Assembly (NCBI GenBank): GCA_938010045.1
Contig: CALLFZ010000020.1
Location: 38,754-102,753 of the forward strand
DNA: 64,000 nucleotides
Direction: 5' to 3'
Source: an uncultured bacterium
GTDB taxonomy: Bacteria > Verrucomicrobiota > Kiritimatiellia > PWTM01
Shown here: positions 4,034 to 51,897 of the stretch, piece by piece
Layout of the letters: each line of letters begins with the position of its first letter
Position numbering within the stretch: the stretch's first letter is position 1
Program-made: the position numbers and the translations under genes
Notes under the pieces: generated by a model
The model's input: only the letters and a program-made list of their open reading frames with translations
Told to the model about the DNA's origin: nothing
The model's database searches: none

Positions 4034-5080
4034 GTGAAGGCGCCCACCTTTATTGACCGTGTCCAGGTCCACGTCCGCGCTGGACGCGGAGGCGACGGCG
4101 TTGCCACGTTTCGCCGCGAAAAACGCGTGCCCTGGGGCGGCCCAGACGGCGGCGACGGCGGCCGGGGCGGCGACGTGGTGCTGCGGGGCGACGCCTCGCT
4201 TGATTCTCTTCTCCACCTCTACTATCAGCCGCACCACCGTGCGGAAAATGGCATGCCCGGCCGCCGCAAGCAGCAAACCGGCCGCAGCGGGGCCGACTGG
4301 ATCATCCGTGTGCCCTGCGGCACCGAAGTCCGCAACGCGGCGGACGGCGCCTGGATCGGCGAGATCATGCACGACGGCGAACACCTCGTGGTGGCGCGAG
4401 GCGGCGCAGGTGGGCTCGGCAACCTCCATTTCGTCACGTCCACCCACCAGGCGCCGCGCGAATGCACGCCCGGCCAGCCCGGCGAGGAACGCAAGCTGCT
4501 GCTCGAGCTGAAGCTCATCTCCGATGTCGGCCTCGTCGGATTCCCAAATGCAGGCAAGTCCACCTTGCTCGGCGCGATCAGCCGAGCCCGGCCCCGCGTC
4601 GCGCCCTATCCGTTCACCACCCTCCATCCCACGGTCGGAGTCGTGCCGCTCGACGACGAGCGGACGCTGCGCGTCGCCGACATCCCCGGTCTCATTGCCG
4701 GCGCGCACCGAGGCGTCGGTCTCGGCCACGATTTTCTGCGGCATATCGAACGCACCCGCTTCCTCGTGCTGCTGATCGACATGGCCGGCACCGAGGGCCG
4801 GCATCCAGCGGACGACTTTTTTTGCCTCCGCCGAGAGCTCGAGATGTACGGGCGCGGACTGGACGAGCGGCCCTATCTGACCGTCGCCAACAAAATGGAC
4901 ATGCCCGATGCGGCGAAGCATCTCGAAGAGTTCGTGGCTCGCACCAGCGTCACTCCGTTAACGATTTCCGCGCAGGCGCGCACAGGCCTCGACACATTGA
5001 TCGCCACTCTCGCGGAGCGCATCGCCGAACTCGAGCGTGCCCCCCCATCGGCCGCCCCGCCTGCTCCGCCGCCGCCATGA
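4034..5080 (+). CDS. obg: GTPase Obg/CgtA
   Basis: An Obg fold N-terminal glycine-rich domain (GRGGDGVATFRREK...GGPDGGDGGRGGDV) is followed by a GTPase domain (GFPNAGKSTLL). Confidence 0.92.
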   Translation: MKAPTFIDRVQVHVRAGRGGDGVATFRREKRVPWGGPDGGDGGRGGDVVLRGDASLDSLLHLYYQPHHRAENGMPGRRKQQTGRSGADWIIRVPCGTEVRNAADGAWIGEIMHDGEHLVVARGGAGGLGNLHFVTSTHQAPRECTPGQPGEERKLLLELKLISDVGLVGFPNAGKSTLLGAISRARPRVAPYPFTTLHPTVGVVPLDDERTLRVADIPGLIAGAHRGVGLGHDFLRHIERTRFLVLLIDMAGTEGRHPADDFFCLRRELEMYGRGLDERPYLTVANKMDMPDAAKHLEEFVARTSVTPLTISAQARTGLDTLIATLAERIAELERAPPSAAPPAPPPP

Positions 5081-14512: not shown

Positions 14513-15916
14513 TCAAGCGGCCCAGTGTCTCAGGTCAACGAACCGACCGGCGATCGCGGCGGCGGCGGCCATCGCCGGGCTCACCAGGTGGGTACGTCCC
14601 CCCTTGCCCTGGCGGCCCTCGAAGTTGCGATTCGAGGTCGCGGCACAGCGTTCGCCCTCCGCGAGCCGGTCAGGGTTCATCGCTAGACACATGCTGCACC
14701 CCTGCCGGCGCCATTCGAACCCCGCCGCGCGGAAGATGCGGTCGAGCCCCTCGGCCTCCGCTTGACGCCGCACCTGCGCGGAGCCCGGCACCACCATCGC
14801 GCGCACTCCCGCCGCGACGCGACGGCCATGCGCGACCCGCGCCGCCTCGCGCAAATCCTCGATGCGGCCGTTCGTACAGCTTCCAATGAACACCACCTGC
14901 ACCGGAACCTCGGTCATGCGCTGGCCCGGCCGCAATCCCATGTAGCGGAGCGCCCGCTCGGCGTCCTGCCGGCTGTAGCCCGGCACCCGGTCCGGTTCGG
15001 GAATCGGCTGGTCCACGTCCACCACCATCCCAGGACTCGTACCCCACGTCACCTGCGGCGCCACCTGGTCGGCCGCGATCGTCACCTCGCGGTCGTACCG
15101 GGCGTCGGGATCGGAGGCCAGCATTCGCCAACGCTCGATCGCCCGCTCCAGCGCCGCCCCGCGCGGGGCATACGGCCGATCCCCCGTGGCGATGAACTGA
15201 AAGGTCGTCTCATCCGGGGCCACCAGCCCCGCCCGCGCCCCGGCCTCAATGCTCATGTTGCAGATCGTCATCCGGCCTTCCATCGACATCGCCCGCACCG
15301 CCTCACCCGCGTACTCCAGCACGAAGCCCGTCGCACCCGCCGTGCCGATGGTGCCAATCAACTTCAAAATGAGATCTTTGGGCGTCACCGGCGGACGCAG
15401 ACGGCCGGCGAACTCCACGCGGAATACCTTGGACTTGCGCTGGCGTAGTGTCTGCGTCGCCAGGACGTGCTCAACCTCGGAGGTGCCGATCCCAAACGCC
15501 AGCGCACCAAACGCGCCGTGTGTCGCGGTGTGGGAATCGCCGCACACGATCGTCGTCCCCGGCAGCGTCAGCCCAAGCTCAGGACCAATGATGTGCACGA
15601 TGCCGTTGCGCTCATCATCCAGGCCGAACAACCGAATGCGAAACTCCCGACAGTTCGCCTCGAGCGCCGCGATCTGCTCGCGCGCGACCGGATCGCTGAT
15701 CTCGCGCCACTCGTCCGTCGGCACGTTGTGATCCATCGTCGCAAACGTCAGATCCGGCCGTCGAACCCGCCGACCCGCCAACCGCAAACCGTCGAACGCC
15801 TGCGGACTGGTCACCTCGTGCACCAGATGCCGGTCAATGTAGAGAAGAGCCGTGCCATCACCGAAGTCTCTGACAACGTGGCACTCCCAAACTTTTTCGT
15901 ACGTGGTTCGACTCAT
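14513..15916 (-). CDS. leuC: 3-isopropylmalate dehydratase large subunit
   Basis: [15 protein letters not shown]...[15 protein letters not shown] is an aconitase-family LeuC N-terminus. The start was placed at the internal ATG (15916) because the longer ORF reads through the tRNA. Confidence 0.9.
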
Positions 15917-16320
15917 GAGCCTGACATCATACGGCCCGAAATACCGATGCGCAAGCGACCACCCACGATTCCCGTGCCCCCACGTCCGACGCCGCCGAAC
16001 CCTGCAGACGGACGGCCGAACGGACGGCAGGTTTCGAAACGGTGTTTCCAAGGATTGGACGATGATACCGAGCAGCCATCCAAACCTTGGACGCGACTCA
16101 ATCGCGGGCGGCCCCACCGTAGGGGGAACCGGCCGCCCACCTCGGCGCCGTGCCGCGGCCAACTCACAACACCTCGGCCATCCGTGGCGCCGACGTCGCT
16201 GGGCACTTCCGCTCCGACGCCCGCGATCTGCAAGGCGGTATTCTGCGGCGTACATGGCTGGCCGGATCGTTTCCGAGCTCCGGCGCCGGAGCGGTGCCTG
16301 CGAGCCGGCGGGGTTGTCCG

Positions 16321-16354
16321 GTGCCTGTCGCCGCTCTTCGGTGGGGACAGGCAC
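16321..16354. repeat. Short hairpin copy of the GGGGACAGGCAC / GTGCCTGTC repeat family (9-bp arms, 16-nt loop)
   Basis: The sequence is GTGCCTGTCgccgctcttcggtgGGGACAGGCACAAG. The same 15-mer GGGGACAGGCACAAG occurs at 51206. Confidence 0.45.
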
Positions 16355-16517
16355 AAGTACAAAATCGGCGCGGGTCCAGCTGGGCCATCGGCGCGCCGGG
16401 CACGGTACAGCGCCGAGTGCTGATCCGCCCCGCCCGATGCGCTGACACGAAACGGTACTCCGCGAAGCCCAGAGAGTCCCACCGAGCGGCCGAAGCGCAG
16501 ATGGTCGAGCGCCGGGA

Positions 16518-16594
16518 TGGTGCGCCTGCCGCGGATCGAACGCGGAACCTTCAGCTCCGGAGGCTGACGCTCTGTCCAATTGAGCTACAGGCGC
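16518..16594 (-). tRNA. tRNA-Arg (anticodon CCG)
   Basis: The reverse complement folds as a cloverleaf: acceptor GCGCCUG/CAGGCGC, D-arm GCUC/GAGC, anticodon stem UCAGC/GCUGA with loop CUCCGGA, T-arm CCGCG-UUCGAUC-CGCGG, and an encoded CCA. Confidence 0.85.
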
Positions 16595-16658
16595 ACGCGA
16601 GCGGCTAAGTTTCGCACGCGCGGCGGGGCTTGGCAAACTGGGTCGAACCCCGTCCCGA

Positions 16659-17741
16659 TCAACCGTTGGCGGCCTGAAACTCCCGCATGAACTCGATCAG
16701 CGCGTCCACACCGGCCGGCGGGAACGCGTTGTAGATCGAGGCACGAATGCCTCCGACGGACCGGTGCCCCTTCAGCCCCTTGAGCCCGCGTGCGGCAGCC
16801 TCTTTCACGAACTTCTCCTCCAGCGCCTCGTTCGGAAGCCGCCAGGTCACGTTCATGATCGAGCGATGCTCGGGCACCGCCGTCCCTCGATAAAAACCGC
16901 TGGACGCATCGATCGCCGCATACAGTTTCGCCGCCTTTTCGCGATTGCGGCGCTCGATCCCTTCAACGCCACCCTGCGCGATCAGCCACCGGGTCGTCAG
17001 CATGATCATGTAGATCGTGAACGTCGGTGGCGTGTTGTAGAGCGACTGCTCCGCGGCATGCGTGCGGTACCGAAAGAAGATGGGGACGTCCTCCGGACAC
17101 CGCTCGAGCAGGTCTTTGCGAATCACGACCACGGCGCAACCGGCAGGGCCAAGATTTTTCTGCGCGCCGGCATAGATCAGCCCGAACTGCCGCACGTCCA
17201 TTGCCCGGGAGAGAAAGTCCGACGACATGTCCGCGACCAGCGGCGTCGGCGTCGTCGGGAACACGGCCCACTGCGTGCCCGCGATCGTTTCGTTCGATGT
17301 GAGGTGGACGTAGGCGGCATCGGGCGAGAAGGTGAGGCTCTCGAGTGCCGGTAGGCGGGTGGGGATGTCCTTTGAGGTGTCGGCCACGACCCGCACCGAC
17401 CCGCGCACTTTGGCCTCCTTGATCGCCTTCGAAGCCCATGCGCCCGAGTTCACGTATTCCGCGATCTGGCCGGGGGTGAGGAGATTCAGCGGCACCATCG
17501 CGAACTGGGCACTCGCGCCACCCTGGAGGAACAACACGTCGTAGTCCTCCGGCAGATGGAGCAACCGCCGCAGGTTCGCGATCGCCTCCTCATGCACCGC
17601 CGCGTATTCCTTGCCGCGGTGGCTCATCTCCATGATCGACATTCCGCTGCCGTGGTAGTCGAACAGCTCTCGCTGCGCCTCGAGCAACGCTTCCTCCGGC
17701 AGCACCGCCGGTCCGGCCCCGAAGTTGTACACTCGCGCCAT
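16659..17741 (-). CDS. serC: Phosphoserine aminotransferase
   Basis: [19 protein letters not shown]...HRGKEY is the SerC N-terminus. The start is at the internal ATG (17741), giving 360 aa. Confidence 0.9.
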
Positions 17742-25431: not shown

Positions 25432-26133
25432 TCACCAGTGGATCGTGAATGCGCCGCTGCGGAGCTGCGGCTTCATCTCGGCCCACGGCACCCACCGCAC
25501 GGAGCCATCGAGCATCCCCTCGTTGGCGCCGAGCGGGTAGCGGCCGCGTAGGTGATTCACGCCGCGCCGAGTGTCTGGCCCGTACCAGCCATAGCCGCTC
25601 CATTCGCGCGTCACATCCACCCACAACACGCGCACCGAGGGCTGGTCCGTCGCCCGCGTCGGGAATATCGGCGACCGCGTGTGGGGCTGCAGCGGGCTCC
25701 AGCCGTTGAACACGTAGGGGTTGTCCTTCGCAAGGTACGTGTAGCCCCACACCGACATCTGTCCACCGTACGACCAGTTCCAGAAGTAATCAAAGTCCCA
25801 GTCGCGCCGGTTCGCGGGACAGTAACAGTGGCCGCGCGTGATGCCGTACGAGGCGACCAACACATTGCTGTGCAGGTAGGCGAAATAGTACGGAGAGGAG
25901 TTTTGCGCATGGATCACGGGATACCGGCCGCCAAAGTCCCCGACGGCGGCCTCGGTCGCCGTCAGCAACACATGGAGGTTCGAGGCGCACGACGCGCGCC
26001 GCGCCCGCTCCTGCGCCCCCGAAATCCCGGGTACCAGGATCAGAATCAGAATCCCAATGATTCCGATGACCGCTAGCAGCTCGACCAGCGTGAATCCGCC
26101 ATTCCGACGCGCCCCCGATCTCCGCCGACTCAT
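25432..26133 (-). CDS. Prepilin-type N-terminal cleavage/methylation domain protein (DUF1559, pseudopilin-like)
   Basis: GFTLVELLAVIGIIGILI is a class III signal peptide / N-methylation motif. The start is at the internal ATG 26133, which overlaps the upstream gene's stop. Confidence 0.75.
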   Translation of the reverse strand: MSRRRSGARRNGGFTLVELLAVIGIIGILILILVPGISGAQERARRASCASNLHVLLTATEAAVGDFGGRYPVIHAQNSSPYYFAYLHSNVLVASYGITRGHCYCPANRRDWDFDYFWNWSYGGQMSVWGYTYLAKDNPYVFNGWSPLQPHTRSPIFPTRATDQPSVRVLWVDVTREWSGYGWYGPDTRRGVNHLRGRYPLGANEGMLDGSVRWVPWAEMKPQLRSGAFTIHW

Positions 26134-27440
26134 ACCAGCGGATCGGCGCCGGTCGCGATCGGATGGAACAGGCCCGGCCCAGGTTTCCACGCGGACGGCT
26201 CCGGAACCAGCGCGTTCTTCGACGCGTTGAGTAGCCACTCCCATGAGAACGACTTGCCGGTGTAGGCCGCGATGCGCGCGCCGATCGCCGTCAGTGTGCT
26301 CTCCGCAATCCGGACGCCCTCGTTCAGCGGCTGGCCGGCCCGTATGCTCCGGATCAGGTCCACGTGCTCCTGCTCCTGCCCGTTCACCGACGGACCCGCG
26401 TAAGCCCAGACCGTCTTGCCGTCATGGCTCATGATCCGGCCCGCACAGTCGCTCCAGCCCTTCGCGCCGACGATCTTTTCGCCGTGCCGTTGGGTCCCCG
26501 GTCCGTGACCACAGAAGCTCAGGCACCGGGCGCCGTTCGGATACTCCAGCTCCGCCGCGATGTGGTCCCAGATGTCGCCGTTATACTTGACCCAGTCGGC
26601 CTCGTTGCCCAACGCCTTGGCGACCGCCCGGGCTTGATCCGAGTAATCGCGCCAGCCGCGCCCGCCGACCGCCGTGAACTTCTTTGGCGGTCCGTCGAAG
26701 CACCAGTTCATCACATCGATGTTGTGAATGTGCTGCTCGACGATCTGGTCGCCCGACAACCACGTAAAGTGGTACCAGTTGTGGCACTGCCACTCCATCT
26801 CGCTCATGCCGGCCTCGATGCCCCGGTACCAGATGCTGCCGCCGTACCAATAGCACTGGCCGCCGACCAACTCGCCAATCGCGCCTTCGTGGATGCGCTT
26901 CATCAGCTCGACCCGCGCCGGCTCATGCCGCCGCTGCGTACCCGCGACGATCGCGAGTTTCTTCTGCTCAGCCAGCCGCGAGGCCTCGATGAACAGCCGG
27001 CATCCCGCGACATCCGTCGCGACCGGCTTCTCGGTGAAGATGTGCTTACCCGCCTGCACCGCGGCCATCATCTGCCACGGCCGGAACGCCGGCGCGGTGG
27101 CCATGAGCAGAAGGTGTGTGTCGGTCTTCGCGAGCGCCTCGTGGCACTGGAAGCCGCCGAATATCGCATCGTCCGGCACCCGCACGCGATTTTTGAACTT
27201 CGGATCCTTCAGCAGCGAGTCCCGCAGGCGCCGCGCCTTCTCCGGAAAGAGATCCGCCAGCGCGACCACCACCACGCCGGGATCGGCCATCAGGCAGTGC
27301 TTCACCGCACCGCTGCCGCGCCCGCCACAGCCGAGCAACCCCACGCGAATCTCGTCCGACCCCGCCGCATACGCTGCACGCGCGGCCGCGAGCCCCGCCG
27401 CCACTCCGCCTGCCGTCATTCTTGACATCGTTGCACTCAT
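26130..27440 (-). CDS. Gfo/Idh/MocA family oxidoreductase with twin-arginine (Tat) signal
   Basis: The N-terminus has Tat-like features and GLLGCGGRGSGAV is a Rossmann motif. The fold is similar to GH109 and inositol dehydrogenase. Confidence 0.72.
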   Translation of the reverse strand: MSATMSRMTAGGVAAGLAAARAAYAAGSDEIRVGLLGCGGRGSGAVKHCLMADPGVVVVALADLFPEKARRLRDSLLKDPKFKNRVRVPDDAIFGGFQCHEALAKTDTHLLLMATAPAFRPWQMMAAVQAGKHIFTEKPVATDVAGCRLFIEASRLAEQKKLAIVAGTQRRHEPARVELMKRIHEGAIGELVGGQCYWYGGSIWYRGIEAGMSEMEWQCHNWYHFTWLSGDQIVEQHIHNIDVMNWCFDGPPKKFTAVGGRGWRDYSDQARAVAKALGNEADWVKYNGDIWDHIAAELEYPNGARCLSFCGHGPGTQRHGEKIVGAKGWSDCAGRIMSHDGKTVWAYAGPSVNGQEQEHVDLIRSIRAGQPLNEGVRIAESTLTAIGARIAAYTGKSFSWEWLLNASKNALVPEPSAWKPGPGLFHPIATGADPLV

Positions 27441-27484
27441 CCTCGCCTCTCCCTTCCAACCGGTCGCGTCCATCCACCCGCCGC

Positions 27485-28780
27485 TCATGTCCGTTTCCCC
27501 TTCTCCTCCACCACCAGCCCCGGCAATTGATACTTGCCCGGTACGGCCACCGGCGGCACTGGCATCGGGTCGCTCATCTTGAGGTCCGACCGCGGCCGCA
27601 GATCCAGCTCACAACGCTGCAGGAACCACTCCCGCTTCATCTGCTGACGAGTGTAGGCGGACTCGCGCGCCATGATCGCGCACATCGTGCTCTCTGTGAC
27701 CTGCCGCGCCTCGTTCAGGTACGCGCCGCCCCGGATACTCTCGATGAGATGCCGGTGCTCCTCCACGTACGGGTTCGGCGTCGGTCCCTCGTACCGCCAT
27801 TTCACCTCCCCCTCAATCACACCGGCGCAGTTGCTCCACCCCTTCGTGCCCACCACCCGCTCGCTCACGTTGCCCGCCGAACCCTCGATCTGCCGGCACA
27901 GGCTGATCGTGCGCACGTCGCCCGGATAGAAGAATTCCGTGCCGAAGTGATCGTAGATGTGGCCATACTCCGGCGCGGTCCGGAACTGCCGGCCGCCGAG
28001 CGAATGGACCTGATCCGGCAGAGCGCCCATCGCCCAGTTGATCACATCAATGTTGTGCACGTGCTGCTCGACGATATGATCGCCCGATAGCCACACGAAA
28101 TAGAGCCAGTTGCGAAGCTGCCACTCGATGTCGCTCTGGTTCGGCTCACGCTTCTTCACCCAAAGACCACCCTGATTCCAGTAGCACTGCGCCGAGACGA
28201 TTTGGCCGATCGCGCCATCGCGAATGCGCTTCATCGTCTCCATGTACTTCGGATCATGCCGCCGCTGCGTGCCGGCCGCGACGCAGAGCTTCTTCGCGAC
28301 TGACTTCTCCGCCGCCTCGAGCATCTGCCGCACGCCCGCCGCGCACACCGCGACCGGCTTCTCGGTGAAAATGTGCTTGCCCGCCTCCACCGCGGCCGAA
28401 AAATGCAGCGGCCGGAACCCCGGCGGCGTCGCAAGGATCACCAGGTCCACCTCGCTGAGCGCGAGCACTTCGCGGTAGGCCTCGAGCCCGACAAAGCAGC
28501 GGTTGTCGGGGACCTTGAACTTTGCTTTCGCGCGCTCCACGCGATCCGCGAACGCATCGGCCAGCGCCACGATCTTCACGCCCTGAGCGGCCTCTAGACA
28601 ATTGTCCGCCGCGCCCATACCGCGGCCGCCGCATCCAATCACGCCAACCCCGATGGTGTCGGTCGCCGCCGTGTAGGCGACCCTGGGAGCCGCGCCGGCC
28701 AGCGCAAATCCGCCCGCCGCCATCGCCGTCCGTCCCAGAAACCGCCGCCGATTCATCCGTGCGATGTCCGCCATAATCAT
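27485..28780 (-). CDS. Gfo/Idh/MocA family oxidoreductase with Tat signal (paralog of 26130..27440)
   Basis: NRRRFLGRTAMAAGGFALAGAA is a Tat motif and GVIGCGGRGMGAA a Rossmann motif. AAGGAG lies 3 nt upstream of the ATG at 28780. Confidence 0.75.
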   Translation of the reverse strand: MIMADIARMNRRRFLGRTAMAAGGFALAGAAPRVAYTAATDTIGVGVIGCGGRGMGAADNCLEAAQGVKIVALADAFADRVERAKAKFKVPDNRCFVGLEAYREVLALSEVDLVILATPPGFRPLHFSAAVEAGKHIFTEKPVAVCAAGVRQMLEAAEKSVAKKLCVAAGTQRRHDPKYMETMKRIRDGAIGQIVSAQCYWNQGGLWVKKREPNQSDIEWQLRNWLYFVWLSGDHIVEQHVHNIDVINWAMGALPDQVHSLGGRQFRTAPEYGHIYDHFGTEFFYPGDVRTISLCRQIEGSAGNVSERVVGTKGWSNCAGVIEGEVKWRYEGPTPNPYVEEHRHLIESIRGGAYLNEARQVTESTMCAIMARESAYTRQQMKREWFLQRCELDLRPRSDLKMSDPMPVPPVAVPGKYQLPGLVVEEKGKRT

Positions 28781-29960
28781 CTCCTTGTCGCGCGGGGCAC
28801 ACGCAGAACGCGCCGCCGTCGCATCAAATCCATACTCTATCCCCGGACAGCGCGTCCGCACAAGCCGCACCCCGCCCCTCGCGCCGTTTGCGCTGTGGGG
28901 CATCCGCTGGCTCAAGAGGCGTCGGCGAAGCGAATATCGTTCCCGCCAACACCCCGGCGCCACTCACCCGCGCTTCTCGCCCTTCCTCGAAAAACACGAA
29001 TGCTTCGACCATCCGCCCCCCTGGGGACCGGCACTTGGAACGCCCCTCGAGACCGGCACCTCGCCGGCCCTACGGCGGCGCGGGGGACAGGTACCTCTGA
29101 CGGGCACCTCTGACGGCTGAGCCCGAAACAAGCACCTCGCGGGCGGCCGCTGGGAAGAGGCACCTTGCGGGCGGATCGGGACAGACTCATGTACGGTCGG
29201 CCGGGCCGCTCGGCGTCAGTCGCCTCGCGTCAGCTACATGCAGTCGTCTTAGGGACCGTCATAGGCGCCATAGGGACAGGCACCGTTCTGGGAGCGGAAC
29301 CGGGATGGGCACTGAGAGCTCACGGGGCACAGGGTGGGGACAGGCACAGCACCGGCCGCACGAGTTCCAACGACACTTCTAACGCCGAGAGTGGGGCTGT
29401 CGTGTGCCTGTCCGCAGTCCGCTGCGGCCGTCCGCGATTGGGGACAGGCACATGCGCCGACGACGCAAAAATCTCGCTGTCCCTATGCTCTGACTTCGTA
29501 TCGGGTGCCTGTCCCCATCGGGAGTCGCGATCGATGTCGAGCGCCGCCGCGCGGAAGCCCGCGAGTGGCGAGGCCGCCGTCTGCGGCGAGCAGGGCGGGC
29601 CCGACGGTTTCCCGCCGCTGTTCGATAGAGGACCGGCAGACGAGGCATACATGCACTTCTATCCGCTTCTACCGGCATGCAGACCCCTCGTCGCATCTCT
29701 TGACACAATCCACAACGCGATCCCACCTACCCCTCCGACCCGCGAGCCCTCTGCGCAGGATCGCATCTTGGAACGGCGAAGCGGGGCGCTCCAGCACCGC
29801 GCCCGATGAGGACGCGCGGGTTTCTTCCGCGGGTCGCGGCGCGCCGCCTTCGGCGGTGCGCAAACGCGGACGGTGCCGGCTAGCCGCTTGCAGGAAGCGG
29901 CGGGGCGTCGTAGTGTCTGGCTGCCACGCCGATCAGCCACCGGCGGGCGGGAGATTCGTC
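28781..29960. repeat. Non-coding repeat island A: mosaic of GGGGACAGGCAC / GTGCCTGTCCCC modules plus degenerate GCACCTC tandem repeats
   Basis: This is 1.2 kb with no credible ORF. The core 12-mer or close variants occur at 29023, 29083, 29271, 29336, 29404 (inverted), 29440 and 29505 (inverted). Long stretches align to island B. Confidence 0.65.
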
Positions 29961-30785
29961 ATGCGCCGGTTTCGTCCTTGGTGTCTCGCGGCGGGTGCCC
30001 TCTTCGCCACGGGATGTATCGAAAGCAAAATGGTCATCCATCTGACACCCGATGGTTCGGGCACGATCATCTCAGAAGACTTCTTCTCGCCGCAGGCGAC
30101 GACGATGATGACGCAGTTCGGTGCGGCCCTGGCCGGCACGGGCACCACCGCCGCCGCCAGCGACCCTCTCGCGATATTCAAAGACCAGATTGAGCGGAAA
30201 ACGAAGGAACTCGGGGGCAGGGCCCGACTCGTGAAACAGGAGCCCGCCACGAACGCCACCGGTTGGGCCGGGTTCCGGCTCACCTACGCCTTCGACGACA
30301 TTCGGCAGGTGTCACTGCCCGTGGGTGGATCCGATGCGGAACCGGAGGATGACGACTCAAAGAAACCCGAGACGTTCCGCGTCGAATTCGAGCGCGGACG
30401 CCCAGCCGTTCTGCGCCTTCTGCCACCCTCGACCGCCGCGAAGCCGGCCGAAGCGCCGCCGACGGCGGCGCCATCGCCAGATGCGAACAACGCACAAATG
30501 GCCGCCATGATGGCGCCCATGATGGCCGGCATGCGAATGGCCATGGAGATCCGCGTGGACGGAACGATCGTGAGCGCCGAAGGCGCCGACGTCAGCGCCG
30601 ATCGCCGCAGCGTCACGTTGCTCGACGTCGCGGTGGACAAGCTGCTCGGCAACGCACAGGCGATGCAATTGATGATGAATAAGGGGTTGTCCGACTCCGA
30701 AAAAAGCCGCCAATTGAAGCAACTCAACATTGCCGGCGTGACCATCACGGATCCGAACCGGCCCATCGTCATCAAGTTTGAGTGA
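29961..30785 (+). CDS. Hypothetical lipoprotein
   Basis: The ATG is preceded by GGGAGA. The signal peptide has a lipobox (LFATGC). The mature part is Ala/Met-rich and low-complexity. No known domain was recognised. Confidence 0.5.
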   Translation: MRRFRPWCLAAGALFATGCIESKMVIHLTPDGSGTIISEDFFSPQATTMMTQFGAALAGTGTTAAASDPLAIFKDQIERKTKELGGRARLVKQEPATNATGWAGFRLTYAFDDIRQVSLPVGGSDAEPEDDDSKKPETFRVEFERGRPAVLRLLPPSTAAKPAEAPPTAAPSPDANNAQMAAMMAPMMAGMRMAMEIRVDGTIVSAEGADVSADRRSVTLLDVAVDKLLGNAQAMQLMMNKGLSDSEKSRQLKQLNIAGVTITDPNRPIVIKFE

Positions 30786-41694: not shown

Positions 41695-43568
41695 CGCGGA
41701 TTCTCATCCCTTGCCTTGGCCGGCGGGTCCGCGACGCCGGACTCTCCGTCGTCCTGCTGCTGGCACCAGGTGTCCACGCCATCGAGTACCACGTCGCGAT
41801 GACCGGTCGCGACGAGAACCCCGGCACTGCCGCCGCGCCGTTTCGGACCATCCAGCGCGCGGCCGAGATCGCCGTCCCGGGCGATGTGGTCACCGTCCAT
41901 GCGGGGCTCTACCGCGAACGCGTGAACCCCCGCCGCGGCGGCGATTCGCCCGAACGCCGCATCGTCTACCGTGCCGCCCCCGGCGAGCATGTCGAACTGC
42001 GAGGCTCGGACATCGTCCGCGGATGGACCCGTTGTTCGAACGACCTCTGGCGCGTCGTCTTGCCGAACTCGTTCTTTGGCGACTTCAATCCGTTTGCCGA
42101 TCCGATCCGCGGCGACTGGTTTGTTCCAATGAATCGTCCGCACCACACCGGCGCCGTCTACCTCGACGGCGAGGAACTCATCGAAGCCGCATCGTTGGAA
42201 GAGCTCAACAACCCGCCGGCCACGCCGTACGCCGTCGGCTGGTGGTTCGCGACGGTGGACGCAAGCAACACCACGATTCTCGCCCGCTTCGGGGCCGCGG
42301 ATCCCAATCGGCGCATCGTCGAGATCAACACCCGCCGCACTGTCTTCTACCCGGACGCGCCGGGTCGCGACTTCATCACGGTTCGCGGGTTCACGATGCG
42401 CCACGCTGCGACGCCGTGGGCGCCGCCGACCGCCGAACAGATCGGACTGCTCGGCACCCACTGGAGCCGAGGTTGGATCATCGAACGCAACGTGATCTCC
42501 CACTCGCGCTGCGTCGGGATCACGCTCGGCAAGTACGGCGACGAATTCGACAATACCGCGAACAACACCGCCACCGGGTACGTCGCGACGATCCACCGCG
42601 CGCTCGAACGGGGCTGGACCCCAGAGCGCATCGGGGGCCACCTCGTGCGCGATAACGTCATTTCCCACTGCGAACAGGCCGGTCTGGTCGGCAGCCTCGG
42701 CGCGATGTTCAGCGTGATTTCGAACAACGTGATCCACACGATTCACACTCGTCGGCGCTTCGCCGGCGCTGAGCAGGCCGGCATCAAGATCCACGCCGCG
42801 ATCGACGCGCGCATCGAGCGCAACGTGATCGTGAACGCCTACCGCGGCATCTGGCTCGACTGGATGGCGCAAGGCACCCGCGTGAGCCGGAATGTCTGCA
42901 TCTCCAACGCCACCGAGGACCTTTTCGTCGAGGTCAACCACGGGCCCTTCGTGGTGGATCACAACTGGCTGTTGTCCCCCGTCAGCGTTTCGGACTGGTC
43001 GCAGGGCGGCGCGTTTGTGCACAACTTCTTCGGCGGTCGAATCGTGACGAAACCACAACTGAACCGGCAGACGCCCTTTCACCGGCCGCACTCAACCCAG
43101 CTGGCCGGCATGAGCGTGATCCACGGCGGCGACCACCGATTCGTGGCCAACCTCTTCGCCCCCTCGGCGGTGGTGCGCGATCCCGCGGCCTGCGGCCTCG
43201 CAACCTACGCGACCAGCGCCCTGCCCGTGGTGGCCCGCGCCAACGTGTACGCGAACGGGGCGCGCCCATATCCCAATGAGCCCGCCGCTGTGATCGTGTC
43301 TCAACCCATCCCATGGAACGTGCAGACCGACAGCGCGGGCCGGTGGCACCTCACATGGAACGGGCCAACGCCACCCGCGACTTTGGCACGGCCGCTGGCA
43401 TCCACCGAACTTGGCCATGCGCGAATTCCTAATCTGCCCTTTGTGAATCCCGACGATTCGCCCATCCTATTCGCCGAGGATGTCCTCGGCTCCGCGCGCG
43501 CCCCCGCCCCGACCGCCGGCCCTCTCCAAGTCTGGCCCCCCGACGGAGTGGTGCGGTTGTACCCTTGA
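41691..43568 (+). CDS. Right-handed parallel beta-helix repeat protein (pectin-lyase fold; putative polysaccharide lyase/hydrolase), secreted
   Basis: A signal peptide is followed by repeated NVIxxxxxGI motifs (ERNVISHSRCVGITL, RDNVISHCEQAGLVG, ERNVIVNAYRGIWLD). Confidence 0.62.
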   Translation: MTRILIPCLGRRVRDAGLSVVLLLAPGVHAIEYHVAMTGRDENPGTAAAPFRTIQRAAEIAVPGDVVTVHAGLYRERVNPRRGGDSPERRIVYRAAPGEHVELRGSDIVRGWTRCSNDLWRVVLPNSFFGDFNPFADPIRGDWFVPMNRPHHTGAVYLDGEELIEAASLEELNNPPATPYAVGWWFATVDASNTTILARFGAADPNRRIVEINTRRTVFYPDAPGRDFITVRGFTMRHAATPWAPPTAEQIGLLGTHWSRGWIIERNVISHSRCVGITLGKYGDEFDNTANNTATGYVATIHRALERGWTPERIGGHLVRDNVISHCEQAGLVGSLGAMFSVISNNVIHTIHTRRRFAGAEQAGIKIHAAIDARIERNVIVNAYRGIWLDWMAQGTRVSRNVCISNATEDLFVEVNHGPFVVDHNWLLSPVSVSDWSQGGAFVHNFFGGRIVTKPQLNRQTPFHRPHSTQLAGMSVIHGGDHRFVANLFAPSAVVRDPAACGLATYATSALPVVARANVYANGARPYPNEPAAVIVSQPIPWNVQTDSAGRWHLTWNGPTPPATLARPLASTELGHARIPNLPFVNPDDSPILFAEDVLGSARAPAPTAGPLQVWPPDGVVRLYP

Positions 43569-49218: not shown

Positions 49219-50718
49219 CTATCGATCGGTCGCGACGCCCGCAAGCCAGTCGGCCAGCAGCCGCGCCCCAAAGAGTGTGGCGCCCGCGCCACGGTGGGCG
49301 GCCGCCGCTGGATCCCGCGCGGTGCCGGCGATATCCAAGTGCGCCCACCGCACGCCGTCCGGCACGAAGCGCCTCAGGAATGCCGCGCCGAGAATCGTGC
49401 CCGCGCCGTGCTCACCGCTGTCCGAATTGGCGAGGTCCGCAAATTCGCTGGCGAGCGCCTCGTCGTATTCCGGCCACAACGGCAGAGGCCACAGCCGCTC
49501 GCCGCAGTCTTCCCCCGCCGATCGCAGAGCCCCCATAAGCTCTTCGTCATTGCCGAGCACGGCAGCCGCATGGTGGCCCAGCGCAACGACCGCCGCCCCA
49601 GTCAGCGTCGCGACATCGACGATGATCTCGGGATCGCGCTCCGAGGCCATCGACAGCGCGTCGGCGAGGATCAGCCGTCCCTCCGCATCCGTGGACACCA
49701 CCTCGACCGTGAGACCGGATCGCGTGCGCACCACGTCGCCCGGCCGCACCGCTCCACCGTCGGGCATGTTCTCTGCCACGGGGAGCCAGCCCGAGACCCG
49801 CACCGGCAACCGGCGCACGGCAGCCAACACCATCGCGCCCAGCACCGCCATGCCGCCGCTCTTGTCGTAACGCATCATGTTCATGTTCTTCCATGGCTTC
49901 AGCGACAGGCCGCCGGAGTCGAACGTGATCGTCTTGCCGATCAGTGCGATGGGACGGCCACAGGCGCCAGGTCCCCGATACTCGATTTCGATCAGGCGCG
50001 GAGGGTGAACGCTACCACGGCCGACCGCCAACAACGCGCTGCACCGCTCGCGCTCCAACGCACGCCGCTCGTAGACGCGGACGCGCAGACCATGACGACG
50101 ACACAATCGCGCCGTTTCGCGCGCGATCACCTCAGGCGAGGCGAGGTTCGCGGGCAGATTCGCGAGCCGGACGACGTCGAGCAACGCCTCCGCCTCGGTC
50201 GCCCCCACCGCCGCTGCGCGAGCAACCCCCTGCGAGCGAGCCCCGGCGCGGACGACAACCTGCAAGGATCGGCGCCGGGGCGGCTCTCGCTGAAGCTTCT
50301 CCGGCCATCCGCCGCACAAGACCGCGGCGAACGCCAGGCGACGCGCCCAATCCACCGCTCCCCCAGACGCTGGCAGAGGGGCCACCAGCCGCTGGAATTC
50401 GCGGGCGGCGCACGTCCGCACCGCAGCCCCCAGTGATTGCTCCAGTCTCCATGGCGGTGGCTCCGCCGTCTCCCCCGCGCCGCTGAACACCCACCATGCG
50501 GGCCCTCTCGCGCCATCGCCGCGCAGCAGCGACACCGTGCCGAGCTTCGCGGCATCCGTGCATCGCGTCAGCCAGTCCTCAAGGCGCCGGGCAACGTCAT
50601 CGCTCGTTTCGATCAACGCCACGGGCCGACCCGCGCGACGTACCACCGGTACCCACACCGCACCACGGGCTTCCCCAGCCCCTCCCGGCCGAGCCGCGGA
50701 AACCTGAACCTTCGTCAA
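49219..50718 (-). CDS. pepA: Leucyl aminopeptidase (M17)
   Basis: NTDAEGRL-like STDAEGRLILADAL and GKTITFDSGGLSLK are M17 catalytic motifs. Confidence 0.88.
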   Translation of the reverse strand: MTKVQVSAARPGGAGEARGAVWVPVVRRAGRPVALIETSDDVARRLEDWLTRCTDAAKLGTVSLLRGDGARGPAWWVFSGAGETAEPPPWRLEQSLGAAVRTCAAREFQRLVAPLPASGGAVDWARRLAFAAVLCGGWPEKLQREPPRRRSLQVVVRAGARSQGVARAAAVGATEAEALLDVVRLANLPANLASPEVIARETARLCRRHGLRVRVYERRALERERCSALLAVGRGSVHPPRLIEIEYRGPGACGRPIALIGKTITFDSGGLSLKPWKNMNMMRYDKSGGMAVLGAMVLAAVRRLPVRVSGWLPVAENMPDGGAVRPGDVVRTRSGLTVEVVSTDAEGRLILADALSMASERDPEIIVDVATLTGAAVVALGHHAAAVLGNDEELMGALRSAGEDCGERLWPLPLWPEYDEALASEFADLANSDSGEHGAGTILGAAFLRRFVPDGVRWAHLDIAGTARDPAAAAHRGAGATLFGARLLADWLAGVATDR

Positions 50719-51077
50719 CGCAGCTCCTCCGGCAATTGCGCGCGACGCGCTGGATCCCCTGGAAGATCGTTGGCATCGAACCCCAGAAGCACAATCGCGC
50801 GCTCAAAGTTGCGTCGCGCCGCGCGCTCGCTGTTATAGGTCACCCTAACCACACGATTCGAAGGATCGGTCTCCACGCGGATCAGGATGTTCGTGTCGAA
50901 CCCGCGCAGTGCTTGCTCCACCATCTGGACTGCCTGCGGCGTCCGCATTTGAGGCACGCGGATCTCAAAGGTTCGAATCACCTCGCGGAAGCACCCGGCC
51001 GCCAAGAGCGCCGCGACCACACCACACATCCAGCGCATCAAGGTTCTCCTACCGTTCGTTCGGGCACGGACACGCAC
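50715..51077 (-). CDS. Hypothetical small lipoprotein
   Basis: The signal peptide has a lipobox (LLAAGCF). The stop overlaps the pepA start. There are no conserved cysteines for an HMA fold. Low confidence. Confidence 0.35.
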   Translation of the reverse strand: MRVRARTNGRRTLMRWMCGVVAALLAAGCFREVIRTFEIRVPQMRTPQAVQMVEQALRGFDTNILIRVETDPSNRVVRVTYNSERAARRNFERAIVLLGFDANDLPGDPARRAQLPEELR

Positions 51078-51798
51078 GATAGGGCTGCGCGGCTGCTCCT
51101 GTCAAATGATCGAATCTCGAGAGGAACACGGTCACCTCTCTGGGCGCAGGGGGCGAATCGAACCGACGGGGGTAGCCGGGACGTTGGCTCTGGCTAGGCG
51201 CCCTTGGGGACAGGCACAAGCGCAGACGACGCAACCATCTCGATCTCAATCTGCCGTGACTTTTTGTCGGGTGCCTGTCCCCATTTGAGTCCCCATTTGA
51301 ATCCTCGATCATTGTCGAGCGCCGCCGCGCCGATGCCCGCTCACAACGAGGCCGTCGATCGCGGCGGTCGTGGCACAGGGCTGGCCTGATGGTTTCCTCT
51401 CCGCTGTAGCTCCGGCGCTCCGCCGCCGGAACAAGGCTTGTGGGGGCCGGTGGTAGCAGGCACCTCGGACGGCGGCTGGGACAGGCCCCTCTGGAGCGGC
51501 TGCTGGGGAGAAACACGTACCTGCTCGGCCGAGCACTCCAGCGATCATCGCCCCGCCCTAGCCGCCAGAGATCGTCATAGGGACAGGCAGCGCTCTGGGC
51601 GCAGGCTGGTGCAGAGAACCGATCGGGTTCGCTAGGTGCCTGTCCCCAGTCCGGTCCCCAGCCCGCTGCCCCGTCCGCCATTGGGGACGCCATTGGGGAC
51701 AGGCACACGTCCCGCGGAATCCTCCTACCCGCATCCTGACCCCACGTTTTCCCCCTTCGAAACAAAATCCGCCGCGCAATCGGCTTTCCGGGGCCCTC

Positions 51799-51827
51799 TT
51801 GACGCAGAACCTTGTCGCTTGTATGTT
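51799..51827 (+). promoter_or_regulatory. Candidate sigma70-type promoter (TTGACG-17-TATGTT)
   Basis: The -35 and -10 hexamers have 17-nt spacing and lie immediately upstream of a strong hairpin and U-tract. The -35 region is conserved in island A (CTCTTGACACA at 29697). Confidence 0.3.
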
Positions 51828-51833
51828 GATCAT

Positions 51834-51897
51834 GGGCAGTGTGCGTTTTCCCTGGGTTCCCCACCCAACCTCCTTGGCGCACGCTGCCCTTTTTTTG
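51834..51897 (+). terminator. Intrinsic-terminator-like hairpin (12-bp stem with one G-U, 32-nt loop) plus a 7-T tract; with the promoter, a candidate small RNA of about 60 nt
   Basis: GGGCAGTGTGCG...CGCACGCTGCCC is followed by TTTTTTT. The U-tract exists only in the + orientation, which is antisense to cysK. Confidence 0.4.

What the first reader, a model, noticed from the sequence alone, without database searches (positions are those of the whole stretch)
16321..16354. Solo copy of the repeat as a short hairpin between leuC and tRNA-Arg
GTGCCTGTCgccgctcttcggtgGGGACAGGCACAAG sits in the 600-nt leuC-tRNA intergenic region. GGGGACAGGCACAAG is identical to island B at 51206-51220. This shows the repeat occurs as isolated units as well as in islands. 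Its position is next to a tRNA gene, a classic target region for REP-like and mobile elements. It could also act as a terminator or insulator between the tRNA and leuCD.
Basis: seen in the sequence. Interest (0 to 1): 0.55.

Follow-up and report, generated by a model that had tools for sequence, protein, structure and literature searches.

The report
REP-like transposon-derived hairpin near tRNA-Arg
The hairpin is real and is a worn copy of a short repeated DNA element, most likely spread by a REP-type (RAYT/TIRYT-like) tyrosine transposase typical of Lentisphaerota/Kiritimatiellota bacteria, so it is an ordinary piece of genomic "junk" and not a leucine-operon signal or a classical terminator.

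Summary
GTGCCTGTC (16321-16329) pairs with GACAGGCAC (16346-16354), and GGGGACAGGCACAAG (16343-16357) is identical to 51206-51220. A 9-bp inverted repeat alone is not unusual here. The significance comes from the arms being the 12-nt core GGGGACAGGCAC of a repeat family found at only three non-coding loci in the window.

The copy is not truly solo. About 45 nt away lies a third copy of a ~75-nt module that also follows the repeat doublets in islands A and B (E=5e-7).

The same core occurs in clusters in many metagenome contigs (22/120 against 0/120 viral controls). In Lentisphaerae MAGs it flanks, in inverted arrays, an intact ~317-aa HUH/Y1 transposase gene related to REP-associated tyrosine transposases. 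It fits the published TIRYT repeat consensus GGGGWSAS.

The closest relative (LeuC 90%) keeps tRNA-Arg and leuC but has a different insert between them and no repeat. There is no U-tract, so the hairpin is not a canonical terminator.

Verdict: a degenerate member of a REP/TIR-type non-autonomous element family. It is a new member of a known kind and of low to moderate interest. No transposase gene lies in the window, so mobilisation is inferred.

The parts
16321..16354 (.). The hairpin. The arms are GTGCCTGTC (16321-16329) and GACAGGCAC (16346-16354). An inner 5-bp stem (16331-16335/16340-16344) closes a CTTC loop. The left 12-mer GTGCCTGTCGCC is an 11/12 match to the reverse complement of the core, and the right 12-mer GGGGACAGGCAC (16343-16354) is exact. 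The two core copies are tail-to-tail.
   Evidence: As RNA the fold is -29.7 kcal/mol (+ strand, z=-5.0) and -23.5 kcal/mol (- strand, z=-4.3). As DNA it is -14.6 kcal/mol, z=-4.4.
16343..16357 (+). 15-mer GGGGACAGGCACAAG, identical to island B 51206-51220.
16202..16275 (+). Third, diverged copy of the ~75-nt 'tail module' that follows the repeat doublets in islands A (about 29540-29613) and B (about 51318-51398).
   Evidence: An nhmmer profile built from the A+B alignment hits here with E=5e-7. It is the only other significant hit in the 64 kb. Three-way alignment.
16277..16292 (.). Perfect 16-nt palindrome GCTCCGGCGCCGGAGC between the tail module and the hairpin. It is colinear with GCTCCGGCGCTCCGCCGCCGGAAC in island B (51409-51432).
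16518..16594 (-). tRNA-Arg (CCG). Its 3' end is 164 nt from the hairpin.
14513..15916 (-). leuC (3-isopropylmalate dehydratase large subunit). Its start is 405 nt from the hairpin.
   Evidence: (Aconitase).
29433..29518 (+). Island A 86-nt doublet with head-to-head ends GGGGACAGGCAC...GTGCCTGTCCCC (REPIN-like). Further core copies lie at 29023, 29083, 29152, 29272, 29336 (+) and 29404 (-).
   Evidence: As DNA it folds with a 13-bp closing stem, z=-3.9. It lies in a ~1.2-kb non-coding gap, 28775-29960.
29540..29613 (+). Island A tail module.
51199..51284 (+). Island B 86-nt doublet, 81% identical to the island A doublet.
51318..51398 (+). Island B tail module.
51636..51706 (.). Island B tail-to-tail pair GTGCCTGTCCCC-N47-GGGGACAGGCAC, the same arm order as the hairpin at 16321-16354. 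Degenerate copies lie at 51477 and 51579.

Best explanation
The hairpin is a short, partly decayed member of a family of non-autonomous, palindrome-forming repeats. These are REP/REPIN- or 'TIR-repeat'-like elements arranged in BIME-like mosaics. Their 12-nt core GGGGACAGGCAC is the recognition sequence of a RAYT-like (TIRYT-type) HUH/Y1 tyrosine transposase lineage found in Lentisphaerota/Kiritimatiellota.

Inferred mechanism: the transposase is encoded once or a few times elsewhere in the genome and is flanked by inverted arrays of the same core. It binds the core in folded single-stranded DNA and excises and re-inserts doublets or fragments in trans into intergenic DNA. Copies then decay and recombine into mosaics.

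The leuC-tRNA copy consists of a tail module, a GC palindrome and two tail-to-tail cores. It is a lineage-specific insertion remnant with no demonstrated host function. At most it acts as a stable RNA/DNA hairpin.

Shown: family membership, non-coding location, mosaic structure, absence in the nearest relative, and association of the exact core with an intact transposase gene in related MAGs. Inferred: that this organism has such a gene, and the single-stranded-DNA mechanism, by analogy with E. coli TnpA-REP.
For: (1) The core is enriched and confined to three non-coding loci.

(2) Islands A and B share an ~250-nt composite made of an 86-nt doublet with 12-nt inverted ends plus a tail. The leuC-tRNA spacer holds a third tail copy at E=5e-7.

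(3) In a metagenome scan for TTGGGGACAGGCAC, 22/120 loci had clustered copies against 0/120 viral-contig controls. The contigs range from 36 to 73% GC.

(4) In L184, two + copies and three - copies flank an ORF fragment. That fragment is the C-terminus of a ~315-330-aa family. Members hit Pfam Y1_Tnp at 17-25 bits and NCBIfam 'REP-associated tyrosine transposase' at E 6e-9 to 3e-15. The only PDB match is 4ER8, TnpA-REP. The HUH histidines and a Tyr in KYVELNPVRAG are invariant. Of 560 members, those with a source name are called RayT or come from MAGs labelled Lentisphaerae or Kiritimatiellaeota.

(5) An intact member, P0116, in two Lentisphaerae MAGs (69% GC) is flanked by + copies upstream (two GGGGACAGGCTT, plus GGGACAGGCTT at 4344). 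It has three - copies downstream, including the exact 12-mer. A further intergenic cluster with the exact 14-mer lies 3 kb away. Other members are flanked by GGGAC(A/G)G-type repeats.

(6) Di Nocera et al. 2013 (PMC3733652) describe RAYT-like 'TIRYT' genes flanked by TIRs with consensus GGGGWSAS. Copies of those TIRs occur as singles, dimers and clusters. GGGGACAG fits that consensus.

(7) The host taxonomy fits. LeuC is 90% identical to a 'Kiritimatiellae' MAG, 78% to a Lentisphaerae MAG and 73% to a Victivallales MAG.

(8) The nearest relative has conserved tRNA-Arg and leuC flanks but a different insert and no repeat.

(9) Contigs of the same strain from other samples break at island B.
Against: No RAYT/TIRYT-like gene lies in the 64-kb window (tblastn), and the rest of the genome could not be searched.

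The link between the exact 12-mer and the transposase rests on one gene present in two MAGs and on one truncated gene (L184). Other family members carry variant motifs.

The protein scores fall below the curated cut-off of the RAYT equivalog model.

There is no GTAG/CGTC tag as in classical REPs.

The genome-wide copy number is unknown. Only about 11 good copies are seen, at 3 loci.

The tail-to-tail, 10-nt-spaced arrangement of this particular hairpin was not seen in the other lineages sampled.

The tail module has no explanation of its own.
Confidence: 0.62

Rival explanations
1. The hairpin is a functional transcription terminator, 3'-end stabiliser or insulator separating tRNA-Arg from leuCD. 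On this reading the repeat family as a whole has been exapted as gene-end hairpins.
For: The hairpin is stable on both strands, at -23.5 and -29.7 kcal/mol with z about -4.3 to -5. It lies downstream of the tRNA and upstream of leuC on their common strand. In other metagenome lineages, 9/15 head-to-head core pairs lie within 40 nt after the stop codon of a >=200-aa ORF, against 7.5% for random placements. E. coli REPs are likewise known from established literature as 3'-end mRNA stabilisers.
Against: No T/U tract follows the stem on either strand, and the scan finds 0 terminator-like sites in 15800-16750. The hairpin is 164 nt from the tRNA end. In this window the other copies lie between divergently transcribed genes (island A) or far from gene ends. 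The nearest relative manages without it. A gene-end position is also what neutral insertion tolerance would produce.
Confidence: 0.15
2. The hairpin is a cis-regulatory element of leuCD, such as a leader, attenuator or operator, or part of a small structured RNA.
For: It lies 405 nt upstream of leuC in an unusually long 601-nt spacer and is strongly structured.
Against: Rfam finds only the tRNA in the window and nothing real in island B. The spacer has no similarity in 80 LeuC loci. It is replaced entirely in the 90%-identical relative. The same core occurs next to unrelated genes and in both orientations.
Confidence: 0.04
3. The repeats are MITEs left by a DDE-type transposon whose terminal inverted repeats start with GGGG (for example Tn3-family-like TIMEs), not Y1-transposase substrates.
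For: The 86-nt units have 12-13-nt terminal inverted repeats with GGGG outermost, as Tn3-family ends do (established knowledge, recalled from memory).
Against: No target-site duplications flank the doublets or the hairpin. The flanks read directly are cgatt/atcgg, ccctt/atttg and gtccg/aagta. Only 12 nt are conserved, not about 38. The gene found flanked by the core is a Y1/HUH gene, not a DDE gene.
Confidence: 0.08
4. It is a chance palindrome that happens to resemble the island repeat.
For: Nine-bp perfect inverted repeats are common in this GC-rich window.
Against: There is a 15/15 identity with island B, and an 11/12 match of the other arm to the same core. The expectation is 0.08 for 8 observed hits. 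A significant tail-module copy lies 45 nt away.
Confidence: 0.02

Closest known systems
TIR repeats / TIRtrons with TIR-associated tyrosine transposases (TIRYT), Di Nocera, De Gregorio & Rocco 2013, BMC Genomics 14:522 (PMC3733652)
   Same: RAYT-like HUH/Y1 genes are flanked at a few hundred bp by inverted repeats that share GGGGWSAS, and GGGGACAG fits that consensus. Copies of the flanking repeat are dispersed as singles, dimers and clusters. The transposases differ from classical RAYTs in length and signatures, and here they are ~317-330 aa with a conserved C-terminal extension.
   Different: The published examples named in the text read are in Stenotrophomonas, Acidobacteria and others. No Lentisphaerota/Kiritimatiellota case and no GGGGACAGGCAC core were found in the literature searched. 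Here the flanks are arrays of 2-4 short copies, not one long TIR. In some lineages the core sits in the loop of hairpins with variable stems.
REP/REPIN elements and BIMEs mobilised by RAYT (E. coli TnpA-REP, PDB 4ER8; Pseudomonas REPINs)
   Same: Both are short extragenic palindromes, with doublets in inverted orientation as the likely mobile unit. Both form mosaic clusters with other short modules. In other lineages there is a preference for gene 3' ends. The transposase gene is flanked by the repeats in inverted orientation. The associated protein is the closest sequence relative of RAYT.
   Different: There is no GTAG or CGTC tag next to the stem. The protein is below the RAYT equivalog cut-off (35.9-56.4 bits against 80) and about twice as long. 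The same 12-mer is conserved across contigs of 36-73% GC, whereas classical REP sequences are largely species-specific. Copy number is unknown.
Rho-independent (intrinsic) terminators
   Same: Both are GC-rich stable stem-loops downstream of a gene.
   Different: There is no U-tract, the hairpin is 164 nt from the tRNA end, and the stem sequence is a dispersed repeat core.

Membership tests
TIR repeats / TIRtron-TIRYT system (Di Nocera 2013) | Repeat carries the GGGGWSAS motif shared by TIRs that flank TIRYT genes | tested here: met
   The core GGGGACAGGCAC begins with GGGGACAG (W=A, S=C, A, S=G). Consensus quoted from PMC3733652; core.
TIR repeats / TIRtron-TIRYT system (Di Nocera 2013) | A RAYT-like HUH/Y1 transposase gene is flanked by the repeats in inverted orientation | tested here: met
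   This is met in related organisms, not in this window. In L341/L342, P0116 has + copies upstream and - copies downstream, including the exact 12-mer. In L184 a truncated gene lies between 2 + and 3 - exact copies. In L328, 19-nt inverted repeats lie 209 nt upstream and 258 nt downstream.
TIR repeats / TIRtron-TIRYT system (Di Nocera 2013) | Dispersed copies occur as singles, dimers and groups in intergenic DNA | tested here: met
   There are three non-coding loci in 64 kb: the hairpin, the 86-nt doublets and clusters of 5-8 copies.
TIR repeats / TIRtron-TIRYT system (Di Nocera 2013) | The cognate transposase gene is present in the same genome | not testable with these tools
   There is none in the window.
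Classical REP/RAYT (GTAG- or CGTC-tagged REPs) | Unpaired GTAG or CGTC tetranucleotide at one end of the palindrome | tested here: not met
   The flanks are ...gtccg|GTGCCTGTC...GACAGGCAC|aagtac, and the doublets are flanked by gatt|GGGG and CCCC|atcg. There is no GTAG or CGTC.
Classical REP/RAYT (GTAG- or CGTC-tagged REPs) | Associated protein is a RAYT (NCBIfam NF047646 equivalog; HUH motif and catalytic Tyr) | tested here: inconclusive
   The HUH histidines and the Tyr are invariant. NF047646 gives E 6e-9 to 3e-15 but only 35.9-56.4 bits against a cut-off of 80. Pfam Y1_Tnp scores lie around its cut-off. The protein is a relative, not an equivalog.
Classical REP/RAYT (GTAG- or CGTC-tagged REPs) | High copy number (tens to hundreds per genome) | not testable with these tools
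   Only 64 kb is available. About 11 good copies are seen. Assembly breaks at island B in other samples hint at more copies.
MITE derived from a DDE transposon | Terminal inverted repeats plus target-site duplication | tested here: not met
   TIRs are present, but there are no direct repeats at the borders of the doublets or of the hairpin.
Intrinsic terminator | GC-rich stem-loop followed directly by a U-tract | tested here: not met
   The scan finds 0 terminator-like sites in 15800-16750 on both strands. The downstream sequences are AAGTACAAAATC (+ strand) and CGGACAACCCCG (- strand).
Rfam RNA families / leu leader | Match to a curated covariance model, or conservation upstream of leuC in relatives | tested here: not met
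   Only the tRNA is found. There is no similarity in 80 LeuC loci, and the spacer is replaced in the 90%-identical relative.

The most novel reading that the evidence does not exclude
The 12-nt core is the conserved single-strand recognition and cleavage site of a PVC-wide clade of long (about 320 aa) RAYT-like transposases. The same 12-mer is kept from 36% to 73% GC genomes. In some lineages it is displayed in the loop of hairpins whose stems covary. In others it forms long palindromes placed immediately after stop codons. This would mean a domesticated system that builds gene-end hairpins, effectively terminator or 3'-end modules in genomes poor in U-tract terminators, instead of a purely selfish repeat. 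The leuC-tRNA hairpin would then be a working RNA 3'-end or insulator element.
Probability: 0.12. Interest if true: 0.55.

Novelty: new member of a known kind. Interest (0 to 1): 0.3.

Why it matters
The result explains three odd non-coding regions of this uncultured PVC bacterium with one mechanism. It also warns annotators that the ORFs called across the islands are spurious, for example the 271-aa call over island B, which has a flat codon-position GC profile. It explains why assemblies of this lineage break at these sites.

More broadly, it links a very widely conserved 12-mer to a large, mostly unannotated family of RAYT-like transposases in Lentisphaerota/Kiritimatiellota. At least 560 members were found. 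This extends the TIRYT/TIR-repeat concept to the PVC group and gives a defined substrate/enzyme pair that could be tested in vitro. For the leu operon itself nothing special is implied.

Tried and rejected
- Rfam at gathering threshold on the whole window and at E<=10 on island B gave only the tRNA and chance miRNA hits.
- A literature search for the motif sequence returned only unrelated eukaryotic papers.
- The viral-contig scan for the 14-mer gave single chance hits only. It was used as the negative control.
- An all-against-all comparison of ORFs next to motif clusters found no shared neighbour gene, only ABC ATPases and LysE.
- Queries with IS608 TnpA and RAYT-like sequences recalled from memory found nothing in the window or the metagenome loci. 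This is a weak test.
- A word-index homology search with the L184 fragment found only itself. The exhaustive HMMER search was needed instead.
- Short contigs for P0006, P0013 and P0010 were too short to show both flanks.
- The idea that the tail module is a small ORF was rejected. The reading frame is not conserved between A and B, with a stop after 24 codons in B, and the codon-position GC is flat.
- The idea that the spacer is a decayed alpha-galactosidase gene, as found at this position in the relative, was rejected. There is no tblastn signal.
- An ECF-type promoter reading of GGAAAC in the reverse complement of the tail module was considered and dropped for lack of a consistent -10 element.
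- CsrA-type, DNA-uptake-sequence and sigma-54 readings of the core were considered. They were dropped because copies occur in both orientations, are clustered, and lack the required companion motifs.

Full report
**What is at the coordinates**

The sequence at 16320-16357 reads gGTGCCTGTCgccgctcttcggtggGGACAGGCACaag.
- GTGCCTGTC (16321-16329) and GACAGGCAC (16346-16354) form a perfect 9-bp stem.
- The 16-nt spacer adds five more pairs around a CTTC loop.
- Predicted folds are -29.7 kcal/mol for plus-strand RNA (z=-5.0), -23.5 kcal/mol for minus-strand RNA (z=-4.3) and -14.6 kcal/mol for DNA.
- The 15-mer GGGGACAGGCACAAG (16343-16357) is identical to 51206-51220. With up to two mismatches it occurs 8 times against 0.08 expected.
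- The left arm extended to 12 nt (GTGCCTGTCGCC) is an 11/12 match to the reverse complement of the same core.
- The hairpin is therefore two core copies placed tail-to-tail, 10 nt apart.

A 9-bp inverted repeat alone would not be remarkable in this 67% GC window. There are 26 overlapping hits against 15.8 +/- 5.3 in simulations. What is significant is the identity of the arms.

**Local context**

All the genes below are on the minus strand.

| Feature | Coordinates |
|---|---|
| Aminotransferase-like gene | 16659-17741 |
| tRNA-Arg(CCG) | 16518-16594 |
| Hairpin | 164 nt further on |
| leuC | 14513-15916, starting 405 nt after the hairpin |
| leuD | follows leuC |

No sigma-70-like promoter and no terminator-like site is found in 15800-16750. 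No T-run follows the stem on either strand.

**The family inside the window**

The core GGGGACAGGCAC occurs only at three loci:
- the leuC-tRNA spacer;
- island A, about 29023-29520;
- island B, about 51199-51710.

All three loci are non-coding. Island A lies in a 1.2-kb gap between a GFO/IDH/MocA gene (27485-28774, minus) and an unknown gene (29961-30785, plus). Island B lies in a 1.2-kb gap between a PALP gene and a small unannotated 107-aa ORF call (50715-51038) that precedes pepA. The ORFs that a gene caller placed over the islands have flat codon-position GC (0.63/0.65/0.66 for the 271-aa call) and no Pfam hit.

Islands A and B share an ~250-nt composite. It consists of an 86-nt doublet bounded by head-to-head cores, GGGGACAGGCAC...GTGCCTGTCCCC, followed by a ~75-95-nt tail. 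Overall identity is 81%. Other modules occur in a different order in the two islands, which gives a BIME-like mosaic.

A profile built from the A+B alignment finds exactly one further significant match in the 64 kb, at 16202-16275 with E=5e-7. This lies 45 nt from the hairpin. It is followed by a 16-nt palindrome (16277-16292) that is colinear with a similar sequence after the tail of island B. The 'solo' hairpin is therefore part of a third, degenerate composite and is not an isolated unit.

**The family outside the window**

None of 80 genome loci that encode LeuC relatives contains GGGACAGGCAC. These loci include Victivallales, Kiritimatiellia, Pontiella and ten Planctomycetota.

Of these, 22 carry two or more copies within 300 nt, against 0 of 120 viral-contig loci used as a chance control. 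The positive contigs range from 36 to 73% GC.

Two arrangements recur:
- The core sits in the loop of a hairpin whose stem differs from contig to contig, for example gagtcaattGGGGACAGGCACcaactgactc. Flank pairing is 0.45-0.61 in clustered loci against 0.22-0.30 in controls.
- Head-to-head pairs enclose a GC hairpin.

Of 15 head-to-head pairs, 9 lie within 40 nt after the stop codon of a >=200-aa ORF, against 7.5% of random placements. No neighbouring protein family is shared among these loci.

**The link to a transposase**

In contig L184, two plus-strand and three minus-strand exact copies flank an ORF fragment. An exhaustive HMMER search shows that this fragment is the C-terminal ~100 residues of a ~315-330-aa family.

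Full-length members show the following:
- They hit Pfam Y1_Tnp at 17-25 bits.
- They hit NCBIfam NF047646 'REP-associated tyrosine transposase' at E 6e-9 to 3e-15, below the equivalog cut-off.
- Their only PDB match is E. coli TnpA-REP, 4ER8.
- The two HUH histidines and a tyrosine in KYVELNPVRAG are invariant.

A profile search finds 560 members at E<1e-10. Most carry no source name. Those that do are called 'REP element-mobilizing transposase RayT', or come from MAGs of Lentisphaerae and Kiritimatiellaeota. Most sit on 1-2-kb contigs, as expected for genes bounded by repeats.

The decisive case is P0116, found in two Lentisphaerae MAGs (GCA_022704055.1 and GCA_002068325.1, 69% GC):
- The intact gene has plus-strand copies upstream: two GGTGACAGGGGACAGGCTTTCTG, plus a shorter GGGACAGGCTT copy at 4344.
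- It has three minus-strand copies downstream, including the exact GGGGACAGGCAC.
- A further intergenic cluster with the exact 14-mer lies 3 kb away, and a tRNA-Glu is nearby.

Other members are flanked by variants:
- inverted AGGGACAGCCTCTTTCTG, 209 nt upstream and 258 nt downstream of P0005;
- GGGGACGGGCTTTTT arrays upstream of P0145 and P0122;
- GGGACGGA repeats around P0213.

No member of the family is encoded in the window.

**Comparison with the literature**

Di Nocera et al. 2013 (PMC3733652) showed that many RAYT-like genes are flanked not by GTAG-tagged REPs but by TIRs, several of which share GGGGWSAS. They also showed that copies of such TIRs form moderately abundant families of singles, dimers and clusters. 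They named these TIRtrons, TIRYTs and TIR repeats.

GGGGACAG fits that consensus, and the anatomy here matches. I found no description of this 12-mer or of a Lentisphaerota/Kiritimatiellota case. The classical REP definition is not met, because there is no GTAG/CGTC tag and the protein falls below the RAYT equivalog cut-off.

The closest relative available is a 'Kiritimatiellae bacterium' MAG, GCA_026417735.1, with LeuC 90% identical.
- It has the same downstream synteny and the same tRNA-Arg. DNA identity is 81-84% up to the tRNA 3' end and from 20 nt before the leuC start.
- Between these two points it carries 1954 nt with an alpha-galactosidase gene, instead of the ~580-nt spacer.
- It has no core copy and no tail module in 13.6 kb, and the window spacer holds no remnant of that gene.

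The spacer also has no similarity in the 80 LeuC loci. Three assemblies of the same strain carry the hairpin unchanged. The segment is thus lineage-specific and is not a conserved leu leader.

**Conclusion**

The hairpin is best explained as a decayed member of a REP/TIR-type non-autonomous repeat family. The family is most likely mobilised in trans by a RAYT-like (TIRYT-type) HUH/Y1 transposase characteristic of this part of the PVC group.
- Family membership is close to certain.
- The transposase link is well supported in relatives but is inferred for this genome.
- The single-stranded-DNA mechanism is inferred by analogy with TnpA-REP.
- A terminator or insulator role is not supported by sequence, since there is no U-tract. 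It cannot be excluded without transcript-end data, and the gene-end bias of head-to-head pairs in other lineages keeps it alive as a minor rival.

The finding is an ordinary kind of feature in a little-studied lineage. It is a new member of a known kind, with interest about 0.3.

Noticed in passing
window 51799-51896 (+): A sigma-70-like promoter, TTGACG-17-TATGTT (51799-51827), is followed by a 12-bp stem (51834-51845/51878-51889, with one G-T pair), a 32-nt loop and a run of seven T (51890-51896). This could be an orphan ~60-nt transcript with its own terminator, just right of island B and convergent with the PALP gene. It has no Rfam match.
   Followed up: partly
window 51401 and 51954 (ends of L325 and L326): Contigs of the same strain assembled from other samples stop inside or at the edge of island B. 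This suggests the repeats are multi-copy in the genome and break assemblies.
   Followed up: partly
L343 234-2187 (GCA_026417735.1): In the closest relative (LeuC 90%), an alpha-galactosidase (Melibiase_2) gene sits between tRNA-Arg and leuC. The tRNA-leuC interval is therefore a variable region in this lineage.
   Followed up: yes
metagenome loci L099, L115, L201, L194, L138, L087, L108 and others: In other lineages the same core lies in the loop of hairpins whose stems differ between contigs. L108 has it as a 48-nt tandem array. This architecture is not seen in the window.
   Followed up: partly
metagenome loci L098, L117, L121, L127, L149, L164, L173, L185, L202: Head-to-head core pairs lie within 40 nt after the stop codons of long ORFs (9/15 against 7.5% for random placements). 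In L117 and L173, by eye, each of two convergent ORFs has its own element just past its stop codon.
   Followed up: partly
L340 9241-17124 (8.8-Mb contig, 45% GC): A member of the RAYT-like family sits in a mobile-element-rich patch. The patch holds a DDE transposase fragment, a PIN/PhdYeFM toxin-antitoxin pair, a group II intron reverse transcriptase and a second Y1_Tnp gene. The 5' region of the family member is duplicated.
   Followed up: no
L341 6678-6753: The intact transposase gene flanked by the exact core also lies next to a tRNA gene (tRNA-Glu, about 280 nt from the downstream array). This echoes the tRNA-adjacent position of the window hairpin and is possibly a coincidence.
   Followed up: no
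window 26130-27608 and 27485-28774 (-): Two tandem paralogous GFO/IDH/MocA oxidoreductase genes (147-nt stretches 72% identical) lie directly left of island A.
   Followed up: no
window 51049-51864 (-) and 29534-29809 (+): Public gene calls of 271 aa and 91 aa lie over islands B and A. They have flat codon-position GC and no Pfam hit, so they are probably spurious ORFs created by the repeats.
   Followed up: yes
window versus ENA contig c_000002304303: The window differs from the public contig by about 0.05-0.12%, as scattered substitutions. An apparent indel or divergent patch lies near 43431. It was flagged only by a crude prefix comparison and was not examined. None of these differences is in the hairpin. 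This is strain-level variation.
   Followed up: partly
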